From: a virus
Taxonomy: Duplodnaviria; Heunggongvirae; Uroviricota; Caudoviricetes
Length of the DNA: 64,000 bases
Reading direction: 5' to 3' (one strand)
Virus record (IMG/VR): IMGVR_UViG_3300045988_162656
A model generated the notes under the pieces. It saw only the letters and a list, made by a program, of their open reading frames with translations. It was not told where the DNA came from and made no database searches. Position 1 is the stretch's first letter, and each line of letters starts with the position of its first letter. Below, in pieces: positions 11,603 through 63,076 of this stretch. The position numbers and the translations under genes are program-made.

Positions 11603-12028
11603 TTAGAGATAAACATCCAGTGACAACTGAAGCGCCTGGGCGATCTTTTTCAGCGCCTGCTCTTCTGGTTCATCAATGCCGTCTTGGTCGGCAATATCAA
11701 GGCACAGACAAAGTACATCTACTGCATCATCAGTCCCGGCCACATCCGCCAGCTCACGTAAAGCCTGGGCATTAGCACGGCGCGGTGAGGCTTCGTATTG
11801 AGCGCGGATATTGGCGCTCATCTGGGCAATCTCACCAGCAAAAGGAGAAAATGCAGGCAGAGCTGCAATTGTTTTCTCAAGAATGGAAATTTCTTTTGCA
11901 TCGCATGTACCGTTGGCATAGGAGATCATGTACCCACCCCACACGGTGGCTTCAACCGCATCACGGTTCTCCATTTTTTTGACTTCGATAACTGCTTTAC
12001 GAGTTTTCTTTTTGAAGAAACCTAACAT
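11603..12028 (-). CDS. hypothetical protein, possibly TerB-like
   Basis: 141-aa ORF; weak resemblance to TerB/DjlA-N type helical domain by eye; palindromic motif upstream. Confidence 0.3.
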   Translation of the reverse strand: MLGFFKKKTRKAVIEVKKMENRDAVEATVWGGYMISYANGTCDAKEISILEKTIAALPAFSPFAGEIAQMSANIRAQYEASPRRANAQALRELADVAGTDDAVDVLCLCLDIADQDGIDEPEEQALKKIAQALQLSLDVYL

Positions 12029-14389: not shown

Positions 14390-14552
14390 AAAATCGATTT
14401 TAAAGCGTCTGGGAAGGGGGTCTAGTGGATTCTGTAGTGATGTTCAGGTCTGGAGTCTCTGATACAAAACAGCCTGCTTCCGTATATTAATAATTAATAT
14501 GTAGTTATTTATATATATACAGAAGCAGGCTAATTACAGACGCCAGAACAAA

Positions 14553-16138: not shown

Positions 16139-16298
16139 GTAAGTCTCCTTCTGTTTAGTTGCATTTGCGTTTCGATGGCTACATTTTGACTAAACCTATC
16201 AGGCGGAAAAGTATTAAATACAGGCAGGAAATGATTGAAAGGCGACTGTTCTTTAAAAGAAAGCCTGCTTCAAACTCTCTTTAAAGCAGGCTTTTGTT

Positions 16299-16856
16299 TT
16301 ACACAGTTTCAGAGGGTAATTTAAAAAATCCGTATTTATTACGTGCCTTAAAGAAGCATTGCATCATTAAGTTTGTGTCATATAAGGCACTATGTGCTTT
16401 GGCATGATCGTATATAAAGCCAAGAGAGAAGGCCAATTCTTCAAGGCGAGGACGTTTACCGTCTTCTGTGGCCCACAATCCCGATAACATAGTATCTATA
16501 ACGGGAACGTCTGGCAGTCTTACTCCATACCCTGAAAACTCGTGTCTAATAAATGGTATATCAAACGCTTCGCCGTTATGAGCAACCCACGCACTACATG
16601 CCTCCATATAAGCGCCAATTTCGCTAGCATGATTTGACAACAAAGGTTCAGCTGCGAGCTGTTCTAATGAAATGCCATGAACGGCTTGAGCTTTCGGATC
16701 TATGTTTCTGCGAGGGTTAAAACGCATCTCCAGACTATCAATATGTCTCTGTGTCTCCAGTTCATAGCGGGTAATTGCGATTTCAATAATTTTATGACCA
16801 GCAAGGAAATCCAGTCCCGTAGACTCGATATCGATGCCTGCAACAATCGTTGTCAT
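16299..16856 (-). CDS. DnaQ-like 3'-5' exonuclease (DEDD family)
   Basis: GIDIESTG, HNGEAFDIPF, HSALYDT motifs. Confidence 0.65.
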   Translation of the reverse strand: MTTIVAGIDIESTGLDFLAGHKIIEIAITRYELETQRHIDSLEMRFNPRRNIDPKAQAVHGISLEQLAAEPLLSNHASEIGAYMEACSAWVAHNGEAFDIPFIRHEFSGYGVRLPDVPVIDTMLSGLWATEDGKRPRLEELAFSLGFIYDHAKAHSALYDTNLMMQCFFKARNKYGFFKLPSETV

Positions 16857-21096: not shown

Positions 21097-22239
21097 TCAC
21101 AGGTCTGCAAACTGGCTTAGAGAAGCCTTGTCCACGGTAGAATCGATCTGACCTACCAGATATGTGCTTTGCTCTGCCTCTTGTGGTGCAATTTGCAGTG
21201 TGTCGGTTAACAACCACTTGTTCATCCAGACCAGCGGATCGGTGGTAACCTCTGGAAATAAAGCCTTCAGGCCAAGACGATTCATAGCCAGATTGGTGCG
21301 GTATTTTACATAGGTCTTCAAAATATCCGCGTTTAAACCAATCATCGAACCGTCTTTGAAGAGATACTCGGCCCAGTTCATTTCTTGTTCGGCGACTGAT
21401 TTCATGGTGTCGTAAATGACGTTTTCTTCATCAGCAGCAATCTCTTTCCACAATAAACCTTCGCGACCGGTACGCATGAAGCGGATCATGCGTTCAGTTC
21501 CTTCGCAATGCAGAGCTTCATCACGGGCAATAAAGCGCATAATTTTGGTGTTACCCTCAAGCAACTTCCGTTCGCCAAAGGCAAACGTACATGCAAAACT
21601 TACATAGAAACGGATCGCCTCAAGCGCATTAATGGACACCAACGTGCGGAAAAGCTGACGGTGCAAAGGATATGGCTCCCAGCCATATTCATTTACGTAC
21701 AGACGCTCAAATTCCTTCTCGCCTAACGACTGGCGCTCGCAGGTCATCCCATAAAGCCTGTCATATTCAGCAGAGATACTGATCGCTCGGTTGATGATTT
21801 CTTCATCCGTAACAATACCGTCAAAAACAATGCTCGGATCGTCCACCATGCCACGAATAATGTGGGTGTAGCTGCGGCTATGGATAGTCTCAGAGAAAGA
21901 CCATGTTTCAACCCACGTTTCCAGTTCAGGAATAGAGATAAGCGGCAGCAGCGTTGCATTTGGGCTACGTCCCTGAACTGAATCGAGTAACGTTTGATAA
22001 CGGAGATTGCTCAGAAAAATGTGACGTTCGTGGTCCCGCAGCTTCGTGTTGAAGTCGATACGATCGCTCGAAATATCAACTTCTTCCGGCCGCCAGAAGA
22101 AAGACAATTGACGTTCAATCAACTTTTCAAAATCACGGTATTTTTGCTGATCGTAACGTGCCACGTTGACAGATTGTCCGAGGAACATAGGCTCTTTGGT
22201 TGCATCATTAGCACCCAAACGGAACGTTGAATATGACAT
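21097..22239 (-). CDS. nrdB: ribonucleotide reductase class Ia beta subunit
   Basis: diiron ligand pattern typical of NrdB; start trimmed to MSYSTF with conserved aaaaacacatg initiation region. Confidence 0.85.
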
Positions 22240-30259: not shown

Positions 30260-30497
30260 CACATATCCACAGGATAGATCCTAATAAAGAGATCCATAGA
30301 TAGATCCTTATATAGATCAAATAAGATCCCCGATCGCTGTAAGCCGCGCCACGACTGGTCTGAAGTCATGTTCATGTATGCTGTCAGCGGTAATTGATAG
30401 TCTGTCAGCGGTTCACCGTATGCTGCCAACTGTTTTTGGTATTCTGTCAGCGGCAAATCAAGTATGCTGTCAGCGGTTGAATGACAAAGGTGTCCAC
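30260..30497 (+). promoter_or_regulatory. plasmid-type replication origin region: DnaA-box-like atatccaca (30273-30281), six GATC sites (30287-30345), five 16-bp iterons (30376-30477)
   Basis: motifs read directly; arrangement parallels P1 oriR/incC upstream of repA. Confidence 0.65.
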
Positions 30498-31592
30498 ATG
30501 TCCACAAAAAATAAAAAAGGTAAAAATAACAAAGAAGTAGAAGATAACATCGACAACTTTGAAGAAGGTTCCCTTGAATTGTACACAGGGGAACTTGTCC
30601 CTAATAGCAACAATACAGTCCAACCAATTGCGTTGATGCGACTGGGGTTGTTCGTCCCCACGCTTAAGGGAACAAAATACAGTAAACGTAACAAGCCAAA
30701 TGAGATCGATGCTTCAAAGGAGCTTGTCCAGCTCGAAGTAGCCCGTTCTGAAGGCTATTCCGATATCAAGATAACCGGTCCTCGTCTCGACATGGATCAT
30801 GATTTCAAAACGTGGGTGGGCGTTGTGCGTTCGCTGGCAGAATACGGCGAACCTAACGGTCGTGTCGAGTTAAGCATCACGAAATTTGCTAAGTTTTGTG
30901 GCTATCCATCGTCACAGATCCGCAAAACACTCCGCGACCGGCTTACAAACAGTCTTTTGAAGATCATGCGTACAACTCTGTCTTTCCAGAGAACGTATGA
31001 AGAAAAGAACGTCGACGGCTCTAACAAGATCTCGCTTCTGATGGTGCACCTCATCAATAGCGTGGACTACAACGAGCAGAAAGATACGGTGGTGTTCTAT
31101 GCAGAACCGAAGCTGGCCGAACTATATCGCTTTGACCATAAGGTTCTTTTGCAGTTAAAGGTTATCAATAAGCTACCACGCAAAGAAACAGCACAGGCTC
31201 TGTACACCTTCATCGAAAGTCTTCCAACCAAGCCTGCGCCGGTATCGCTTGCTCGATTGCGTGCGCGACTCAATTTGAGTAGCAGGAATGTCAGCTCGCA
31301 GAATCAGACTATACGTAACGGCTTAAAAGCTCTCCAAGATTTGGGCTATCTCGAATACAGCGAGATTAAGCGTGGGCGGTCGATCTATATCCAGATTCAC
31401 AGCCGCAATCCAAAACTCAAAGTCGCACCGCCAAAACCTGAAGACATCGAACCCAAAAAACCAGATGAGAAAGCTGGGGAAATTGATGCCAAACAGAACA
31501 TTATCAACAAGATAACCGAACTTTCGCAGAATTTGACGCCTGAAAATATCAAGATGATTGAGATCCTTTCCAATAGTCTCAAACTGCTTTGA
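30498..31592 (+). CDS. repA: iteron-binding replication initiator RepA-like
   Basis: 365-aa ORF (in-frame start after iterons, RBS aaagg) flanked on both sides by iteron arrays; lone plus-strand gene. Confidence 0.7.
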   Translation: MSTKNKKGKNNKEVEDNIDNFEEGSLELYTGELVPNSNNTVQPIALMRLGLFVPTLKGTKYSKRNKPNEIDASKELVQLEVARSEGYSDIKITGPRLDMDHDFKTWVGVVRSLAEYGEPNGRVELSITKFAKFCGYPSSQIRKTLRDRLTNSLLKIMRTTLSFQRTYEEKNVDGSNKISLLMVHLINSVDYNEQKDTVVFYAEPKLAELYRFDHKVLLQLKVINKLPRKETAQALYTFIESLPTKPAPVSLARLRARLNLSSRNVSSQNQTIRNGLKALQDLGYLEYSEIKRGRSIYIQIHSRNPKLKVAPPKPEDIEPKKPDEKAGEIDAKQNIINKITELSQNLTPENIKMIEILSNSLKLL

Positions 31593-41047: not shown

Positions 41048-44000
41048 TCACGTCTTAATGGTTTCTGCTACGTCGGCTAATATCGCTTCTAGTCGTTCTC
41101 CCTCTTCAGGTCTGAAGTAAAGAATGTTGGGGTTAAACCCGTAAAAGACAGTAACGTCAAGGTCTGGAAGGTACTCCTTCCTGCCGACCAAATCGGATGG
41201 CTTGTTTTTGTTGTTAAACAATGCCGTTGCCCGGCTGCCACACGTCAGCACATAGGTCGGACGCACCAGATTGATCTCTTCACGTATAAAGTCGGTGAAC
41301 TGGCCGATCTCGTCTTTGGTGTAGTCTTTTTCTTTGTCTTTAACCTTCTTGCAAACGCCTGTGACATAGAGATCGCCCATGCGTAAATCTCCAGCCGTCA
41401 ATAGCTTGGCCTTAAAGTCGTCGTATCCGTTCTCCATAAAGTAACCGGTTCGAGCATCATTGCCGTTCGCATTGTCCAGAATGATCATGATTTTCGGCTT
41501 AATGCCAATGCTAGGGCGGATTAGTTCATCACCTAATCCCATTTCAGCCGCCATCCGTGTCATGAGCACGTTAATCTCAGCCGAACGTTTGGGGTTCATC
41601 TCAAACGGACGTGAGGCTTTAACTGCGTCTATGACAAGGTTTCCCATCAATTCAGCCTGGTCGCGGAGACGCTCTGGATCAGTTGCTGGCAGACTACCTG
41701 GCTCGATGGATGCAAACGCACCTACTTTTTGCAGTGATTCGCGCACTCGACTATTACAGGCACGTTTCTCGACAGCTTCTTCGAATTGCGCCAGTGACTC
41801 GAATTTGCCGCCAACTTTTTCTCGCGCTCTCATGATGGCTTGGCAGCCATTCTCAGAACACCCTTTCACAGCAGAGAAGGGCGCATACAGCACCTGGCTG
41901 CCATCTTCAAGCGTGCGGATCTCGATTCGGTTAGATGACACGTTAACGTCTGGTGGCAATACGCGAATACCATAGGTCAGCGCATCTTTAACCAGCCCCT
42001 GGTGTTTATCTTCGCCAAGAATAGTGAGAGCAGCAGCGAAGAACTCCGCGGGATAATGAGTTTTCAACCACATAGATTGATAACTGATTAAGGAGTAAGC
42101 AACAGAGTGTGATTTGTTGAACTGGTAGGCACCATTCTTTTCGAATGCGGTCCAGATCTCCTTCGCTTTCATCTCTGATAGCCCTGGATGTGACGCTGTA
42201 ACGCGTACTGCGTTTATAGGTAGTTTTGCGCCGTACTCAAGTGCCTCTTCGACAGTTTTCAGAGTTCCGTCTTCGCATTTAAAATGTTCCGCACGGTGAA
42301 TGCGCTGTGTAGTGCCATCTTCCAGCTCAACGTCTATCCAGCCAGCTTGAGCCTGAACGATGAACTTCTCGCCCATGCTCTTCATTTTTTCCATGTCTTT
42401 TTTGCCGATCGCTTTACGAACGCCGTCAGCTTCAGCCATTGTGAAGCCAGCAAGCAATCGAGTCGCGTTCATCGTCTGTTCCTGATAGAGAATCACGCCA
42501 TTTGTTTCTGCGGTAAGTTCATCAAGAACGGGGTGTAATGATTCCGGCGTCATAAAGCCTTTGGCTACAGAAACATAGTCATCCAACATGCCTGACTGAA
42601 TTGGCCCCGGCCGGAAGAGCGCAGTCGTAGCAACAACCGTTTTAAAGCTCATTGGCTCAATTCCACCACCTAAATCTTTAAGCAGCTTGCGCATTGGGCC
42701 TGATTCAAGCTGGAAAACACCTTGAGTGTACCCAGCAGCAAAACCATCCAGCACCTTGCGATCTTCAAGAGAAATGGCATCAAGATTGATATCTTCACCT
42801 GTGTTCTCTTTTATGTAGCGTTTTGCACTATCGAGCAAATCGAGAGTTGCCAGACCAAGTACGTCCAGCTTAATTAGGCCCATAGCCTCGCAGTAACGCT
42901 TGTCAAATGCGATACAACGCGCGTCACCACGGCGTTCAACCGGTGTACGTTCTGTCAGAGGAACACCTGCTACGATCATCCCTGCCGCATGTCTACCAAA
43001 GCCACGCATAAGACTTTGTAACTTGCAGGCAGCATTGAATGCATCAGGGTATTTTGTCGCGTATTTGTCGAGACTTGCCAGTTGTTCGCGCAGCTCCTCC
43101 AATGGAAGGCTATCATCCTCGACGTTCTTCAGCTCTTTTGATACCGCCATATCTGCGGACTCCACACCATAAATACGAGCGGTATCACGTAGTGCTGAGG
43201 CTGCGCCCAGGTAGGTGAAGTTCGGAATGCCTGCAACGTAATCTTCGCCGTAGCGTTCATTCAGATACTCGATCACCTCATGGCGACGTGCCTGGCTGAA
43301 GTCCAAGTCCGCATCCGGCAAGTCGAGACGCTCAGGGTTGATGAAACGCTCAAACAGAAGACCGTGACGGATTGGGTCGACGTTGGTTATGCCTATGCAC
43401 CACGCCACCAGAGAACCGGCAGAGGAACCACGACCAGGCCCGACAGGAATGCCAGTTTCACGGCTGTGATTCATCAGATCGCGTACCATCAGGAAGTAAC
43501 CACAAAATCCCAGGCGAGTCAGCGTGTCCATTTCGTACTTTAGCCGCTCAACATAAACCCTGTTCTCAGAAGCAGGTGGTGTGTAGCCAAACTCTTTTGT
43601 GGTAAGACGTTTACGCAGCCCTGCAACAGCCAGTTTCATAAGCGTTGCAGGCTCGTCGTCTGCCATCTTTGGCAGTGCTGGTGGCAATTCATGCCAGCGC
43701 CATGTGCAGGCATCGATAATGGTATCCTGCGTTGTTGAGGCCATTGCAGCTGTTACCGGCACATCCATGCGAACGGAGAAGGTTTTCAGCGCCTCAAGGA
43801 GATGGCGGCGACCATTGACGGCGTTATCTCGCTGGTGGGGGATACGCAGACGATGCGGCTGGTCGATTTTGATGTTGTTCGTAACCATGTGCGCAATGTC
43901 TTTAATGTCTGCATCGTCGATCGATTCGTAATAAGCGGGATAGAACGCCACTGGCTCTATTTTCAATGCGCTGGCGACTTTCATCGCCCGGACGTTAATC

Positions 44001-52352: not shown

Positions 52353-52577
52353 AATCGTTACTCCTTTAACGATAAACTTTAGCTAAAATCGATACGATTT
52401 TAGCAGTTAAAAAACGACAATAAAATATAAGAGTAATGTATGAAAGAACAATAAAAATTGCGTAAATGGATATGTGTAAAATATGTGGAATTTCACACAC
52501 AGCGTTGAGCGGTCTGGTTTATGTTAGCGGAGTCTTAATCGAGTTGATTAAAAGGCCAAACCGCTCAACGCTGTGTC

Positions 52578-52664
52578 TGGCGGAGAGTAATGGAATCGAA
52601 CCATCATCGCTTGCGCAATGGGACGGTTTTCAAGACCGCTTGAGCACCATGCTCCCTACTCTCC
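52578..52664 (-). tRNA. tRNA-Ser (anticodon TGA), type II with long variable arm
   Basis: hand-folded: acceptor GGAGAGT/ACTCTCC, anticodon loop CTTGAAA, T-loop TTCGATT, 3' CCA encoded. Confidence 0.8.
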
Positions 52665-52888: not shown

Positions 52889-52964
52889 TGGTGCCGGTTA
52901 GCGGACTCGAACCGCTGACATCCTGCTTACAAGGCAGGCGCTCTACCAACTGAGCTAAACCGGC
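52889..52964 (-). tRNA. tRNA-Thr (anticodon TGT)
   Basis: acceptor GCCGGTT/AACCGGC, D-arm AGCTCAGTTGGTAGAGC, anticodon loop CTTGTAA, T-loop TTCGAGT, CCA encoded. Confidence 0.85.
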
Positions 52965-53060: not shown

Positions 53061-53135
53061 TGGCGATGGTGGGTGGATTCGAACCACCGACCAGTTGGTT
53101 AACAGCCAACTGCTCTACCGCTGAGCTACACCATC
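53061..53135 (-). tRNA. tRNA-Asn (anticodon GTT)
   Basis: acceptor GATGGTG/CACCATC, anticodon loop CTGTTAA, T-loop TTCGAAT, CCA encoded. Confidence 0.85.
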
Positions 53136-53895
53136 AATTCAGCACTGCCAGTATTTATTACTCAACAGTGCCAATCGCGGCGGTGTTAGTTTCTGCCAGG
53201 AAACGCACCGCTACTTGCACTTTTTCGTTAGTGTCAGACGCTTTCGACTTCTCTCAATAGAAGGCAAAATCTTTAAGTAGATGATGTTTCTGAGGACAGC
53301 ACCTACTTTGTAATTTATACAATGTGATGTATGGAATCATTTGTTGTGGAAAAGTGGTTAAACCTACACAACAATCCTGTCTTCACAACGTTGAGGCCAC
53401 TACTCCGATTGAATGTTTGCCCAACATGTTACATATCAACGCTCGCCGGTATCTCTGTGAATAGAACCTTAGAATTGATAAAAATGTAATGGCCTCAACG
53501 TTGTGTGCTGGCTAACCATACCAGCCGGGCTACGTCGCCGCTTTTTAACCCAGTATAAACGACATAATTGAACAAAATGACGTAACAGAATGGGCGGTCA
53601 GTGGCTAAGAATCCGGGAGTCATATGGAGTTGAAAATATACCGACCGCCCATTCTGTTACTTCATCGGAGGGAACATGAGTGTTCCCTCCTGCGTTCTGC
53701 AATCACACTCGCTCAGTGTGTCCCATTTCGGTAACGAGGCTGGAAACTGACCTCGCTGGTGTTTGGCTTATTAGGCTACTGCCAGATAGACTTCTTCGTT
53801 TGCACTTGTATTTAAGTTCAAACAGTCGCATCTCAACGAAAACAAAGTCATCTTATACACAAAGGATAAGTAAGTAAATACTTATCGATATGTTT

Positions 53896-60649: not shown

Positions 60650-60914
60650 CTGGTAGGTAGTTACTTACTTATCACAATGGACGGATGATAGCGACTGGTG
60701 TCAGTTTTTGGAAGTGAAAACGGAAGGGAGTTGTTCTGGTGGTGTCTTTTAAAAGACCTGCTTCCGTATATATTTAATAAGTTACTTATTATTTATATAC
60801 AGAAACAGGCTCCTAATGGATACCAAGAACAACATAATTTGACTCCAACTCCAGATGCTATGTCATTGACAGATTTATCAAGGGAGATCATGTTAGAATT
60901 AGTGTTTTAGCCTC

Positions 60915-61988
60915 GTGGATATTGTCACCATGCGCATGAATAGACTTCCAGGATATGGCCTTCCCGAACTGGCTTTTTGGCCTCAGCCTAAATATGAACG
61001 GAATAAATGGTCGATGTTCTGTCTGAAACTCCGTAATGATGGAACCCTTGCTTGGTATCGGCGATATGTTGATCGTGGTATGCCAAACCACGCTGTTGAT
61101 GACGACTACGATAACTATCCTGAAGCAAGAAAAGCGGCATTAGAGCTGAATAAAAACGTGAGCTTTGACATTGAAAAACTTCCTCTATCTATGTTTCAAA
61201 AGAAGTCATTGCGTTTGAAAGTTGACAAAGCACTCAAAGCCAAATCACGTCTCATGGATGAAGAGTATATAATGCTCAACGAAGCAATTAAGGCACACGC
61301 CAACGATCCGCGAGTGACATTAAATGAGTTAATAATTAACCCAGATTACGAAACTTTGCGTCAACCCCTTTTTGACGTGCTAAGCGAGATGCCTTACTTA
61401 CATTTTGTTTTTCTTCCCAAATTCCAAGTTTCACTTCAACTCGTTGCTCCTAACACTTGGGAATGTTCATATAACAACAAAGCTAAGACAGCGAAGATCT
61501 GCTACCAAGAACGCATAGCCAGAGGTTTTGGTTTATCAGGTGCTGCACATTGGGGAAAAACAAAAGCGACTATTCGCTCAATGCTTCTGCCGCGTGCTAA
61601 CCGGTTACTGCAACTCGCCAGCGTAAAAAGAATGCTGGATGAAGCTCTCAGGAATGGGCAAAAGGTACTGGTTGTTGGCAACTTTGTTTTCTGGTTTGAG
61701 GACAAAAATCAGGTAGGTTGGAGTGTTAAAGTTGCTAGCGAAAGCGAAACCACCTCAAGAGGCAATACGCTCTGGAAAGAAGGAACTATCATTTCAAAAA
61801 ATCACGGTCGAATTGTCGTGCTGCCGTATACAAAAGAAAACGGTAAACATGTAAAAGGTTATACCAAGAATGCCCCTAACGACGGCAATGCAATTCCGAG
61901 ACATAAGGATGAGTATGTTGAGTTGCCCTTTGAAATTTTGGATGGTGACTTGATGTTCAGTCTGTTCGGTGAGCTTAACTACGAATAG
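60915..61988 (+). CDS. hypothetical protein (isolated plus-strand gene)
   Basis: 357-aa ORF on the opposite strand from neighbours, downstream of inverted-repeat element at 60755-60812. Confidence 0.4.
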   Translation: MDIVTMRMNRLPGYGLPELAFWPQPKYERNKWSMFCLKLRNDGTLAWYRRYVDRGMPNHAVDDDYDNYPEARKAALELNKNVSFDIEKLPLSMFQKKSLRLKVDKALKAKSRLMDEEYIMLNEAIKAHANDPRVTLNELIINPDYETLRQPLFDVLSEMPYLHFVFLPKFQVSLQLVAPNTWECSYNNKAKTAKICYQERIARGFGLSGAAHWGKTKATIRSMLLPRANRLLQLASVKRMLDEALRNGQKVLVVGNFVFWFEDKNQVGWSVKVASESETTSRGNTLWKEGTIISKNHGRIVVLPYTKENGKHVKGYTKNAPNDGNAIPRHKDEYVELPFEILDGDLMFSLFGELNYE

Positions 61989-62048
61989 CTTTCATAGAAC
62001 GAAATATTTCTAAGGCTGTCCAATGCAGACCAGCCTTAGAGATTTATA

Positions 62049-62408
62049 TCAACCTTTCTTCATTAACTCGCGTTTAATTTCATCGGTACGCATCGTGACA
62101 TCGGCAGCAGTGATCGCCTCGTTAAGCTTCACGATGTCCTCGATTTCCTGCGGTGACTTCTCTGCCAGATGGAAAATAGCAGCACGAATCACATCAGAGC
62201 GGGTGAATTTCTCGAAGCGAGGGATGAACTTCATCATCTCCAGCAGTTCGAAGTATTCGTCCTCCAGTGACATTGTGCGGCTTTTAATTTTCTCTTTGCC
62301 ACGAGTCGGGCGTCCCTGTGGTCTGACTGGTTGGCGCAAAGGAGTTGTGTTCTTAGCCGGTGCATCAGACTCTTTGCGCTTTGCTAGGTCACCCATTTTC
62401 ATGGACAT
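62049..62408 (-). CDS. small basic DNA-binding partition protein candidate (ParG/ParB-like)
   Basis: 119 aa, basic N-terminus; stop overlaps nothing, start abuts parA stop; classic parA-small-gene operon layout. Confidence 0.4.
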   Translation of the reverse strand: MSMKMGDLAKRKESDAPAKNTTPLRQPVRPQGRPTRGKEKIKSRTMSLEDEYFELLEMMKFIPRFEKFTRSDVIRAAIFHLAEKSPQEIEDIVKLNEAITAADVTMRTDEIKRELMKKG

Positions 62409-63076
62409 TATTCTTCTTCCTCCAGACTCAACAGATAATCTACAAATTCTTCAAACTCGGCTTCCGCCTTTTTGTCGCGCTCGCTACCGGTCATTTCAAA
62501 GATAGAACGACCAGACTCTTCCGCATCATCATAGACGTTGCGGTTATATAGATTGACTGGCGCAGACTCGATGCCAAACGTCTCAACAATCTCTTTAGCC
62601 GCCAGAATGCGAGACACTTGTGATGGCAAAGCCGGGCACTGGTTCATGACCGCGCGGACCTTCACTTTATCGTTTACATTGCGAACATTGTCGATAATAG
62701 GATCGATGTCACGTAAAGATTTCAAATCACGACGCTTAGGACGCAGCGGGATAATGATAACGTCAGCCATCAGCATCGCTTGTCGCTGAATTTCGGAGTC
62801 GAAGCCACCAGCATCTACCACTACAAACTCAGCTCTACCCTGAAGCGATTTTAGGTGCTTAATGATGTCATCCTGAACGTATGCAAAAGGAATCAGCTCA
62901 AGGTCTTCGTTCTGTCGACGGTCTTCACACCAGCTCGTTGTCGTGCGCTGAATATCTATATCGGTAATATAAACCTTCTTCTTCTTTTTGACTTTCAGGC
63001 AAACGGCAATTTGCTGGGCAACGGTGGATTTGCCAGGCCCGCCCTTTGTGCCGCCAACCACAAAGATCTTGGTCAT
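62408..63076 (-). CDS. parA: ParA-family partition ATPase
   Basis: deviant Walker A GGTKGGPGKST; 222 aa. Confidence 0.8.
   Translation of the reverse strand: MTKIFVVGGTKGGPGKSTVAQQIAVCLKVKKKKKVYITDIDIQRTTTSWCEDRRQNEDLELIPFAYVQDDIIKHLKSLQGRAEFVVVDAGGFDSEIQRQAMLMADVIIIPLRPKRRDLKSLRDIDPIIDNVRNVNDKVKVRAVMNQCPALPSQVSRILAAKEIVETFGIESAPVNLYNRNVYDDAEESGRSIFEMTGSERDKKAEAEFEEFVDYLLSLEEEE

What the first reader, a model, noticed from the sequence alone, without database searches (positions are those of the whole stretch)
14471..14531. Duplicated ~60-bp inverted-repeat element (second copy 60755-60812)
Arms cctgcttccgtatat / atatacagaagcagg flank an AT-rich ~25-bp core at 14471-14531 (just downstream of the Dam-like gene) and again at 60755-60812 (upstream of the lone plus-strand gene). 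The arms are nearly identical between copies while the cores differ; the second core contains the ATAAGT/TACTTAT palindrome. Candidates: recombinase target site (lox/dif-like), bidirectional terminator, or late promoter.
Basis: seen in the sequence. Interest (0 to 1): 0.5.

Follow-up and report, generated by a model that had tools for sequence, protein, structure and literature searches.

The report
Conserved boundary hairpin of SSU5-like phage-plasmids
The duplicated inverted repeat is real: it is two of the three copies of a long hairpin that marks the borders between gene blocks in SSU5-like phage-plasmids, and it most likely stops transcription from running into the next block, although its unusually fixed sequence hints at a further, unidentified role.

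Summary
The window is about 60% of an E. coli SSU5-like phage-plasmid. The two copies (14473-14529, 60757-60809) belong to a family of exactly three per genome. The third copy lies outside the window, about 115 nt upstream of the small terminase gene.

Each copy is larger than reported. A 15-16 bp arm pair and an AT-rich apex are nested in an outer imperfect inverted repeat, about 103 bp in all. The three copies sit in fixed intergenic gaps that divide the co-oriented genome into late/partition, replication and regulatory modules.

On the gene-sense (minus) strand, sites 1 and 2 are followed by a U-rich tract. Published RNA-seq of the 97%-identical phage-plasmid Cyrano shows a drop of more than 100-fold, to the assay floor, across the site-2 gap. 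The best explanation is a strong transcription terminator or insulator.

Four features remain unexplained:
- The arms are nearly invariant where flanks are only 75-80% identical.
- The arms evolve in concert among the three sites.
- Site 3 has no U-tract.
- Distant relatives carry half-copies and an inside-out arrangement.

These suggest sequence-specific recognition by an unknown factor. No evidence supports lox/dif-type recombination or a promoter.

The parts
14473..14529 (-). Site 1 inner hairpin: arms at 14473-14487 and 14515-14529, AT-rich apex at 14488-14514. It lies between the Dam methyltransferase gene and the next small gene.
   Evidence: As minus-strand RNA it forms an uninterrupted 18-bp stem, -28.6 kcal/mol, z = -5.2. 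Covariance-model hit of 75.9 bits.
14447..14549 (-). Site 1 full element, including the outer imperfect inverted repeat (GGTCTGGAG 14447-14455 / CGCCAGAAC 14541-14549).
   Evidence: The outer motif GGTCTGGGAG...CTCCCAGACC recurs at all three sites and in all lineages. The extended fold is -44.7 kcal/mol.
14460..14471 (-). U-rich tail after the site 1 stem on the sense strand (CUGUUUUGUAUC).
   Evidence: At least 5 T in 9 nt in 17 of 21 distinct site-1 variants.
60757..60809 (-). Site 2 inner hairpin: arms at 60757-60771 and 60795-60809, apex containing AATAAGTTACTTATT. It lies between the variable cassette slot downstream of the par operon and the 249-aa/helicase/primase replication genes.
   Evidence: As minus-strand RNA it forms a 23-bp stem with two G.U pairs, -31.8 kcal/mol, against -22.2 on the plus strand. 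Covariance-model hit of 83.6 bits. The orthologous gap in Cyrano shows a 6-7.9 log2 drop in RNA.
60730..60833 (-). Site 2 full element with the outer inverted repeat (GTTGTTCTGGT 60730-60740 / CCAAGAACAAC 60823-60833).
   Evidence: -48.5 kcal/mol, z = -8.0.
60745..60756 (-). U-rich tail after the site 2 stem on the sense strand (UCUUUUAAAAGA).
   Evidence: At least 5 T in 9 nt in 25 of 27 distinct site-2 variants.
60810..62048 (.). Variable cassette slot between the par operon (ParA 62408..63076 and its 119-aa partner 62049..62408, both minus strand) and the site 2 hairpin. In this window it holds a plus-strand 357-aa ORF of unknown function.
   Evidence: Close relatives match only 56% of this region. 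At least 10 different cassettes occupy the slot, in both orientations, and one relative has none. No Pfam, NCBIfam or PADLOC match.
16255..16299 (-). Ordinary-looking intrinsic terminator whose stem base (GCCTGCTT/AAGCAGGC) matches the base of the large hairpin. It may be a short relative of the family.
   Evidence: I4. Weak covariance-model hit, E = 0.34. SSU5 has an unrelated hairpin at the orthologous position.

Best explanation
The two repeats are members of a three-copy family of long stem-loops found in SSU5-like phage-plasmids. Nearly all genes in these genomes point the same way. The three copies lie in the intergenic gaps that separate:
- the late/lysis/partition block,
- the DNA-replication and nucleotide-metabolism block,
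- the regulatory block.

Proposed mechanism:
1. The element is transcribed on the gene-sense strand (the minus strand of the window).
2. It folds into an 18-23 bp hairpin with a GC-rich base and an AU-rich top.
3. At sites 1 and 2 a U-rich tract follows the stem.
4. RNA polymerase terminates there.

Consequences at each site:
- Site 2 ends the partition operon, which is expressed in the lysogen, together with whatever cassette gene sits behind it. This keeps that transcription out of the lytic replication genes.
- Site 1 ends the Dam methylase unit.
- Site 3 lies in front of the terminase operon.

What is shown:
- the structure and its positions,
- the U-tracts at sites 1 and 2,
- the collapse of transcript level across site 2 in a 97%-identical relative.

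What is inferred:
- that the hairpin itself causes that collapse,
- that site 1 works the same way,
- that the window's copies behave like Cyrano's.

The near-invariant arm sequence suggests a second, sequence-specific layer, such as a protein that reads the element as RNA or DNA. That layer is not identified.
For: **Identity of the replicon.** The window is 99.9% identical to Escherichia phage CMS-2020a and 97.5% identical to Cyrano, and is related to SSU5.

**Number and position of copies.**
- There are three copies per complete genome, at the same three intergenic positions, in CMS-2020a and in SSU5.
- All 120 IMG/VR loci that contain the element map to one of the three sites.
- A covariance-model search finds no further strong copies.

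**Fold.** The minus-strand RNA folds better than the plus-strand RNA because both arm mismatches in the window become G.U pairs: -28.6 and -31.8 against -26.6 and -22.2 kcal/mol.

**U-rich tails.** A T-rich tail follows the stem on the sense strand in 17 of 21 site-1 variants and 25 of 27 site-2 variants.

**Cassette geometry.**
- Sense-oriented cassette ORFs stop 5-35 nt before the hairpin.
- In a relative with no cassette, the par partner gene ends 30 nt before the hairpin.

**RNA-seq of Cyrano** (PMC9928086, S1 Table, values in log2(FPKM+5)).
- CYRAN_28, 29 and 30 read 5.2-10.8.
- CYRAN_31, the first gene after the hairpin on the same strand, reads 2.3-4.2, where the floor is 2.32.
- Across site 3 the drop is about 1-1.9 log2 units.

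**Distant relatives** (OW968253, pCAV1752-111).
- Sites 1 and 2 hold an ordinary terminator with a GC stem and a U-tract, immediately after or inside the remains of the element.
- Site 3 has a run of eight T.
- So the need for termination at these positions is conserved.
Against: - **Site 3 has no U-tract.** None of 25 distinct variants in the main lineages has a sense-strand U-tract.
- **The arms do not evolve like a terminator stem.** They are invariant, with no compensatory pairs, across relatives whose flanks are 75-80% identical. By contrast, an ordinary terminator at an orthologous position was replaced entirely between this phage and SSU5.
- **The arm sequence changes by lineage but is shared by the three sites within a genome.** This is concerted evolution.
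- **Distant relatives carry forms that cannot be simple terminator hairpins.** Site 1 holds a lone half-element that cannot form the hairpin, and site 2 holds an inside-out arrangement.
- **The G.U strand bias is not universal.** Some site-1 lineages carry the C.A state on the sense strand.
- **The RNA-seq evidence has limits.** It is resolved only to genes, comes from a relative, and cannot separate termination from a protein roadblock or from cleavage followed by decay.
- **In this window the cassette gene is antisense.** Site 2 therefore lies upstream of it, not at the end of it.
Confidence: 0.55

Rival explanations
1. The element is a DNA site for a protein encoded by the phage-plasmid. 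Candidates are the RHH-like 119-aa partner of ParA, the 88-aa winged-helix protein next to site 3, and a ParB-like protein. Binding at three dispersed boundary sites would either act as a centromere or block RNA polymerase as a roadblock during lysogeny.
For: - The arms are nearly invariant, without covariation, while the flanks diverge.
- The arm sequence is lineage-specific but shared by the three sites of a genome.
- A lone half-element and an inverted (inside-out) pair occur in distant relatives. This is how protein half-sites behave, not hairpins.
- On the sense strand the 3' arm is more constant than the 5' arm.
- Site 2 lies downstream of the par operon in every lineage.
- No iterated repeats are seen upstream of parA that could serve as the centromere.
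- Site 3 has no U-tract, yet RNA still drops about 3-fold across it.
- From general knowledge, dispersed palindromic sites of this kind are known: RK2 KorB operators, the four N15 centromere repeats, and the three parS sites of pSM19035.
Against: - No binding data exist and no protein has been linked to the site.
- The arms are 38-42 bp apart centre to centre, which is unusual for a dimer operator.
- Type Ib centromeres are normally arrays of short repeats, and none is present.
- The apex tends to be self-complementary: 15 of 36 distinct apexes have p <= 0.05 against shuffles. A spacer in duplex DNA would not need this.
- The U-tracts at sites 1 and 2 are conserved on the sense strand only.
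Confidence: 0.2
2. The element is an RNA processing or stability signal. The duplex of about 20 bp or more would be cut by RNase III, or would protect the upstream mRNA from 3' exonucleases. This would separate the module transcripts without true termination.
For: - The minus-strand RNA forms near-perfect duplexes of 18-23 bp.
- The hairpin is present at site 3 without a U-tract.
- A transcript drop across site 2 would also follow from cleavage plus decay of the downstream fragment.
- From general knowledge, the T7 RNase III sites are likewise repeated, similar in sequence and intergenic.
Against: - The drop across site 2, which reaches the assay floor, is larger than processing usually gives.
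- The U-tracts at sites 1 and 2 are not needed for processing.
- The half-element in distant relatives cannot form double-stranded RNA.
Confidence: 0.1
3. The element is a lytic replication origin or a programmed DNA-break site. An AT-rich centre that unwinds easily is flanked by inverted sites. The palindrome would extrude as a cruciform or hairpin, either to load the phage helicase or to be cut by the phage SbcCD-like nuclease and start recombination-dependent replication.
For: - AT-rich apex between GC-rich arms within a nested palindrome of 100-140 bp.
- Site 2 lies directly upstream of the 249-aa/helicase/primase cluster.
- The genome encodes SbcC/SbcD-like, RecA-like and exonuclease genes.
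- There is no consistent strand bias in the arm mismatches.
Against: - No initiator protein has been linked to the site.
- Three spaced origins of identical sequence would be unusual.
- The plasmid RepA replicon is elsewhere (30378..31592).
- This reading does not explain the sense-strand U-tracts or the transcript drop.
Confidence: 0.07
4. The element is a site-specific recombination target (lox/dif/attC-like), or a late promoter. These are the first reader's other two candidates.
For: - It has an inverted-repeat architecture.
- Site 2 borders a slot where gene cassettes differ between relatives.
- Cassette breakpoints in OW968253 fall inside the element.
Against: - The spacer is 25-27 bp.
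- No recombinase gene lies adjacent to any site.
- Module order and orientation are identical in five complete genomes.
- None of 120 loci has chimeric flanks.
- There are no cassette arrays with repeated elements.
- There are no attC R/L boxes.
- There is no promoter match at site 2.
Confidence: 0.04

Closest known systems
Intrinsic (Rho-independent) transcription terminators
   Same: - RNA hairpin with a GC-rich base followed by a U-rich tract on the transcribed strand (sites 1 and 2).
- Placed 5-35 nt after stop codons.
- Transcript level collapses across site 2 in Cyrano.
   Different: - The stem is two to three times longer than usual.
- It is nested in an outer inverted repeat.
- The same arm sequence is kept at three sites and across diverged lineages, instead of stems drifting by covariation.
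- Site 3 has no U-tract.
PeSL (promoter-early stem-loop) cassettes of T4-type phages
   Same: - A repeated, conserved intergenic stem-loop.
- It borders a hyperplastic slot where unrelated ORFs are swapped.
- Conserved sequence at the junction provides homology for exchange.
   Different: - No conserved promoter is attached.
- There are only three copies, at fixed module borders.
- Only one of the three borders a variable slot.
- No excision circles or arrays are seen.
Dispersed palindromic partition or regulator sites: RK2 KorB operators, N15 sopC-like inverted repeats, pSM19035 parS1-3 (general knowledge)
   Same: - A few identical palindromic sites scattered over a plasmid or phage-plasmid.
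- They lie at operon borders.
- One lies next to the par operon.
- The sequence, rather than the structure, is conserved.
   Different: - Those sites are 13-16 bp palindromes or heptad arrays. Here 15-bp arms are separated by a 25-nt AT-rich apex.
- No binding protein has been shown.
Phage lambda nut sites, HK022 put sites and T7 RNase III sites (general knowledge)
   Same: Repeated RNA hairpins of similar sequence, placed at the starts or junctions of long co-oriented operons and read by a specific factor.
   Different: No cognate factor is known here, and there is no boxA-like partner. The hairpin is much longer than boxB.

Membership tests
Intrinsic terminator | Stable stem-loop in the RNA of the transcribed strand | tested here: met
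   Minus-strand folds of -28.6 and -31.8 kcal/mol, z = -5.2 and -7.3.
Intrinsic terminator | U-rich tract directly 3' of the stem on the transcribed strand | tested here: met
   Both window copies have one (CUGUUUUGU, UCUUUUAAA). It is present in 17 of 21 site-1 variants and 25 of 27 site-2 variants. It is absent from the out-of-window site 3, 0 of 25 variants.
Intrinsic terminator | Transcript abundance falls across the element | tested here: met
   Tested for site 2 in a 97%-identical relative only: CYRAN_30 reads 5.7-10.4 and CYRAN_31 reads 2.3-4.2 in log2(FPKM+5). Site 1 is uninformative because Dam is at background. Site 3 shows a drop of about 1-1.9 log2 units.
Intrinsic terminator | Usual evolutionary behaviour: structure is kept and sequence is free to change | tested here: not met
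   The arms are invariant, and none of 9 pairs shows a compensatory change. This is typical behaviour rather than a strictly defining feature.
lox/dif-type tyrosine-recombinase core site | Inverted arms of 11-13 bp around a 6-8 bp spacer | tested here: not met
   The arms are 15-16 bp and the spacer is 25-27 bp.
lox/dif-type tyrosine-recombinase core site | Rearrangement (inversion or deletion) between copies | tested here: not met
   Five complete genomes have the same order and orientation. None of 120 loci has chimeric flanks. Rare isomers within a population cannot be tested here.
Integron attC | R''/L''-L'/R' boxes (RYYYAAC / GTTRRRY), cassette arrays, and an IntI integrase | tested here: not met
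   The arms have no such boxes. There is never more than one element per slot.
Sigma-70 or late promoter | -35 and -10 hexamers at the correct spacing, pointing into a gene | tested here: not met
   There is no match at site 2. At site 1 there is one plus-strand match of 9/12, which points away from any plus-strand gene. Promoters of non-sigma-70 type are not covered by the scan.
Plasmid centromere (parS/parC) | Specific binding by the partition protein, and a requirement for plasmid stability | not testable with these tools
   Only position can be assessed: site 2 is downstream of the par operon in all lineages. The partner protein gives a weak RHH-like hit.
Any Rfam RNA family | Score at or above the gathering threshold | tested here: not met
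   Only two tRNAs in the window pass threshold. At the two sites only miRNA-precursor models match, at 13-27 bits against cut-offs of 37-211.

The most novel reading that the evidence does not exclude
The three hairpins form a sequence-specific boundary system. A factor encoded by the phage-plasmid would read the invariant arm, as RNA or as DNA, at all three module borders.

The factor could act in either of two ways:
- It enforces the block in the plasmid state, as a roadblock or centromere-like complex.
- It lifts the block during lytic growth, as an antiterminator, so that one co-oriented 100-kb genome is switched between three insulated units and continuous read-through.

This would explain four observations:
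- the concerted evolution of the arms,
- the half-sites,
- the inside-out arrangement,
- the absence of a U-tract at site 3.
Probability: 0.25. Interest if true: 0.65.

Novelty: new variant of a known kind. Interest (0 to 1): 0.42.

Why it matters
SSU5-like phage-plasmids are common in clinical E. coli, Klebsiella, Salmonella and Enterobacter. A search with the small terminase protein found 955 PLSDB plasmids.

These elements must keep lytic genes silent while plasmid-maintenance genes run. The hairpin at site 2 appears to be the barrier between those two programmes.

Site 2 also defines the slot where accessory cassettes are inserted, and in Cyrano the cassette gene is transcribed at par-operon levels in the lysogen.

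If the element also binds a specific factor, it would be a compact and testable example of genome-wide insulation in a phage-plasmid. It would also be a useful strong terminator part.

Tried and rejected
- **G.U versus C.A strand asymmetry as proof of an RNA function.** It holds in the window and in most lineages. It is reversed in some site-1 lineages (L011, L033, L041, L078, SSU5) and mixed in L015, so it is suggestive only.
- **Covariation in the stem.** None was found because the arms are invariant. Self-pairing of the apex is significant for only 15 of 36 distinct apexes.
- **Rfam.** No family matches.
- **A general host or mobile repeat (REP/MITE).** Rejected. A scan of species-representative genomes found 8 stretches: seven on Enterobacterales contigs (four of them 92-109 kb) and two on contigs of one Bacillota-labelled MAG. 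Their contexts were not examined.
- **Cassette arrays of integron type.** Rejected.
- **Record ends as physical termini.**
  - The SSU5 linear record is cut inside site 3.
  - The Cyrano record starts next to site 3, with terS at position 135.
  - The p4727 record starts at the ATG of the gene after site 1.
  - These look like choices made by annotators or assemblers, so they are not evidence of termini.
- **pMT1 as a test of the par-partner link.** It is uninformative because pMT1 has lost the regions that hold sites 1 and 2.
- **The outer motif CTCCCAGACC as a genome-wide signal.** It is not enriched: 38 hits against 32 expected.
- **Literature.** Two full-text searches and two papers found no description of the element. 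One 2026 preprint could not be opened.

Full report
**What the window is.** The regions around both copies are 99.9% identical to Escherichia phage CMS-2020a (CP054387.1) and 97.5% identical to phage-plasmid Cyrano of E. coli LF82. They are about 78% identical to Salmonella phage SSU5. The window is therefore about 60% of an SSU5-like phage-plasmid. It maps to CMS-2020a positions 78534-109272 and then 1 to about 34000. Nearly all genes lie on the minus strand.

**The observation.** Both copies are present as described.
- Copy 1: arms CCTGCTTCCGTATAT at 14473-14487 and ATATACAGAAGCAGG at 14515-14529.
- Copy 2: arms CCTGCTTCCGTATAT at 60757-60771 and ATATACAGAAACAGG at 60795-60809.
- An arm scan allowing up to 3 mismatches gives 6 hits against 1.45 expected. 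Four of the six are these arms.
- A covariance model built from 36 distinct relatives finds exactly two strong hits in the window, at 83.6 and 75.9 bits.
- Copy 1 follows the Dam gene on the minus strand (Pfam Dam). Copy 2 lies 105 nt upstream of the plus-strand ORF 60915..61988.

**The element is larger than reported, and there are three copies.**
- The complete genome of CMS-2020a holds three copies, at 30712-30764 (window site 2), 61734-61788 (site 3, outside the window) and 93248-93304 (window site 1).
- SSU5 also holds three copies at the same relative positions. One of them is split by the ends of the linear record.
- A scan of IMG/VR returned 120 loci. Every one maps to one of these three sites.
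- Aligning the loci in gene-sense orientation shows that the inner hairpin is nested in an outer imperfect inverted repeat, GGTCTGGGAG ... CTCCCAGACC, 12-20 nt away on each side.
  - In the window these outer arms are 14447-14455 / 14541-14549 and 60730-60740 / 60823-60833.
  - The extended regions fold at -44 to -50 kcal/mol on either strand.

**Position in the genome.** The sites cut the co-oriented circle into three modules.
- Site 3 to site 2: terS, terL, portal, capsid, tail, lysis, a toxin-antitoxin pair, ParA and its 119-aa partner, and a variable cassette.
- Site 2 to site 1: a 249-aa protein, DnaB-type helicase, primase, ligase, tRNAs, DNA polymerase, SSB, exonuclease, recombinase, RepA, SbcCD-like genes, Nrd, ThyA, DHFR and Dam.
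- Site 1 to site 3: small genes, RNase H, regulators, UvsW-like helicase, two ParB-like proteins, ATPases and an 88-aa protein.

**Evidence for termination.**
- Fold: as minus-strand RNA the window copies form uninterrupted stems of 18 and 23 bp, because the arm mismatches become G.U pairs. The plus-strand RNA has C.A mismatches instead. The energies are -28.6 and -31.8 against -26.6 and -22.2 kcal/mol.
- U-rich tails: on the sense strand the stem is followed by a T-rich tail in 17 of 21 distinct site-1 variants and 25 of 27 site-2 variants.
- Cassette geometry: cassette ORFs in the sense orientation stop 5-35 nt before the site-2 hairpin. In one relative without a cassette the par partner gene ends 30 nt before it.
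- RNA-seq: the strongest evidence comes from Cyrano (PMC9928086, S1 Table).
  - In ten samples, ParA, its partner and the cassette gene CYRAN_30 read 5.2-10.8 in log2(FPKM+5).
  - CYRAN_31, the next gene on the same strand, reads 2.3-4.2, where the floor of the measure is 2.32.
  - The two genes are separated by a 193-nt gap that holds the hairpin (Cyrano 31159-31211).
  - That is a drop of more than 100-fold in most samples, down to the assay floor.
- Other sites: across site 3 the drop is about 1-1.9 log2 units. Site 1 cannot be judged because Dam is at background.
- Distant relatives: in OW968253.1 and pCAV1752-111 an ordinary terminator with a GC stem and a U-tract stands at sites 1 and 2, and site 3 has a run of eight T. 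Termination at these borders is therefore conserved even where the element has changed.

**What a plain terminator does not explain.**
- Arm invariance: within the main lineages the arms are invariant, with no compensatory change, while the 12-nt flanks and the spacers vary freely. Pair 9 alone shows C-G, U.G, U-A and C.A states.
- Contrast with an ordinary terminator: the one at 16255-16299 has been replaced by an unrelated hairpin at the orthologous place in SSU5.
- Site 3: it never has a sense-strand U-tract in the main lineages (0 of 25).
- Concerted evolution: in the distant lineage the arm sequence differs but is shared by all three sites of a genome.
  - Main lineages: ACGGAAGCAGGC.
  - OW968253: ..GAGCCAGGC.
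  - pCAV1752-111: CCAGAGCA[A/C]GGC.
- Half and inside-out forms: in the distant lineage site 1 has only the AT-rich part plus the 3' arm, which cannot form the hairpin. Site 2 is inside-out, in the order AT-rich part, 3' arm, outer arm, ordinary terminator, outer arm, 5' arm, AT-rich part. The whole forms a palindrome of about 215 bp.
- Apex: it is significantly self-complementary in only 15 of 36 distinct versions.
- Strand bias: the G.U bias is reversed in some site-1 lineages.

Together these points suggest an added sequence-specific constraint. It could be a factor that reads the arm, or repeated gene conversion between the copies.

**The recombination and promoter readings.**
- Module order and orientation are the same in CMS-2020a, SSU5, OW968253 and pCAV1752-111, and in the parts of Cyrano that were examined.
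- No locus joins the flanks of different sites.
- The single odd locus, L072, is a deletion that begins about 180 nt beyond the hairpin.
- The slot beside site 2 holds at least ten different cassettes, but never more than one element.
- Each cassette brings its own version of the outer left arm. This fits homologous exchange within the conserved inner hairpin rather than site-specific recombination.
- Promoter scans find nothing at site 2 and one weak plus-strand match at site 1.

**Distribution.**
- The exact pattern occurs in eight stretches among the species-representative genomes.
  - Seven are on Enterobacterales contigs: Kluyvera, Buttiauxella and Y. pestis.
  - Two are on contigs of one Bacillota-labelled MAG, which may be misbinned.
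  - I did not examine their gene context.
- Acinetobacter and Aeromonas relatives, whose terS is about 30% identical, lack the element and have ordinary terminators upstream of terS.
- No Rfam family matches.
- Two literature searches and the papers I opened do not describe the element.

**Verdict.** The finding is a real, conserved, three-copy boundary hairpin. The best-supported function is strong transcription termination or insulation at module borders (confidence 0.55). The evidence is direct for site 2 in a near-identical relative and inferred for the window. A sequence-specific second role remains plausible and untested.

Noticed in passing
window 7972, 29390, 32906, 36938, 40467, 53866, 54495, 56357, 60662 (11-nt hits): The motif ATAAGTAAGTA, allowing up to 1 mismatch, occurs 9 times against 0.95 expected. 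Most hits are intergenic, in either orientation, and lie within about 15-110 nt upstream of minus-strand gene starts. The extended form is a palindrome, roughly TGATARGTAAGTA-n-TACTTACYTATCA, and it overlaps sigma-70-like hexamers. It is probably an operator or promoter-associated site of the prophage. One copy lies about 85 nt downstream of hairpin site 2.
   Followed up: partly
window 11327, 12056, 35795, 59879, 63115 (minus strand); also L124 about 11650-11700, between site 3 and terS: A third repeated motif, AGAAAACAAnTTG, is often palindromic (AAAACAAnTTGTTTT). It has 11 hits against 3.2 expected. It lies 20-40 nt upstream of several start codons, including those of the helicase and ParA.
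   Followed up: partly
window 60810-62048: This is a hyper-variable cassette slot between the par operon and hairpin site 2. Relatives carry at least 10 unrelated cassettes in either orientation. Here it holds a 357-aa plus-strand ORF with no Pfam, NCBIfam or PADLOC match (PHROG 22329, unknown function). In Cyrano the cassette gene in this slot is transcribed at par-operon level in the lysogen.
   Followed up: partly
window 16255-16299: An ordinary bidirectional-looking terminator, AAGCCTGCTTTAAAGATAATTTGAAGCAGGCTT, uses the same stem base as the large hairpin. SSU5 has an unrelated hairpin at the same position.
   Followed up: partly
window 52494-52579 and 53577-53665: Two long inverted repeats (24-nt and 26-nt arms, 92% complementary, 37-38 nt loops) flank the two tRNA genes at 52892-52964 and 53064-53135. 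A similar one is present in SSU5 at 42004-42090.
   Followed up: no
L165 24830-25045 (pCAV1752-111); L134 about 21150-21330 (OW968253.1 71150-71330): In a distant lineage the site-2 element is turned inside-out around an ordinary terminator, giving a palindrome of about 215 bp bounded by GTACCCC/GGGGTAC. Site 1 in the same genomes keeps only half of the element.
   Followed up: partly
L124 about 11625-11660 (CMS-2020a, outside the window): A small hairpin with a U-tract, AGAGCGCATGGACGCGCTCTGTGTGTTTT, lies between site 3 and the terS start codon. It could be an attenuator of the late operon.
   Followed up: no
L128 3263-3299 and L126 1-18 (SSU5 record ends): The linear GenBank record of SSU5 is cut inside the site-3 palindrome. 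The Cyrano record also starts next to site 3. This is probably an assembly or annotation choice and not a physical end.
   Followed up: partly
window 62049-62408 (minus strand): The 119-aa gene after ParA is annotated as a RelE/ParE toxin in Cyrano. It gives only a weak ribbon-helix-helix-like hit (aCcr1 family, E = 2e-4), so it is more likely the centromere-binding partner of the type Ib ParA.
   Followed up: partly
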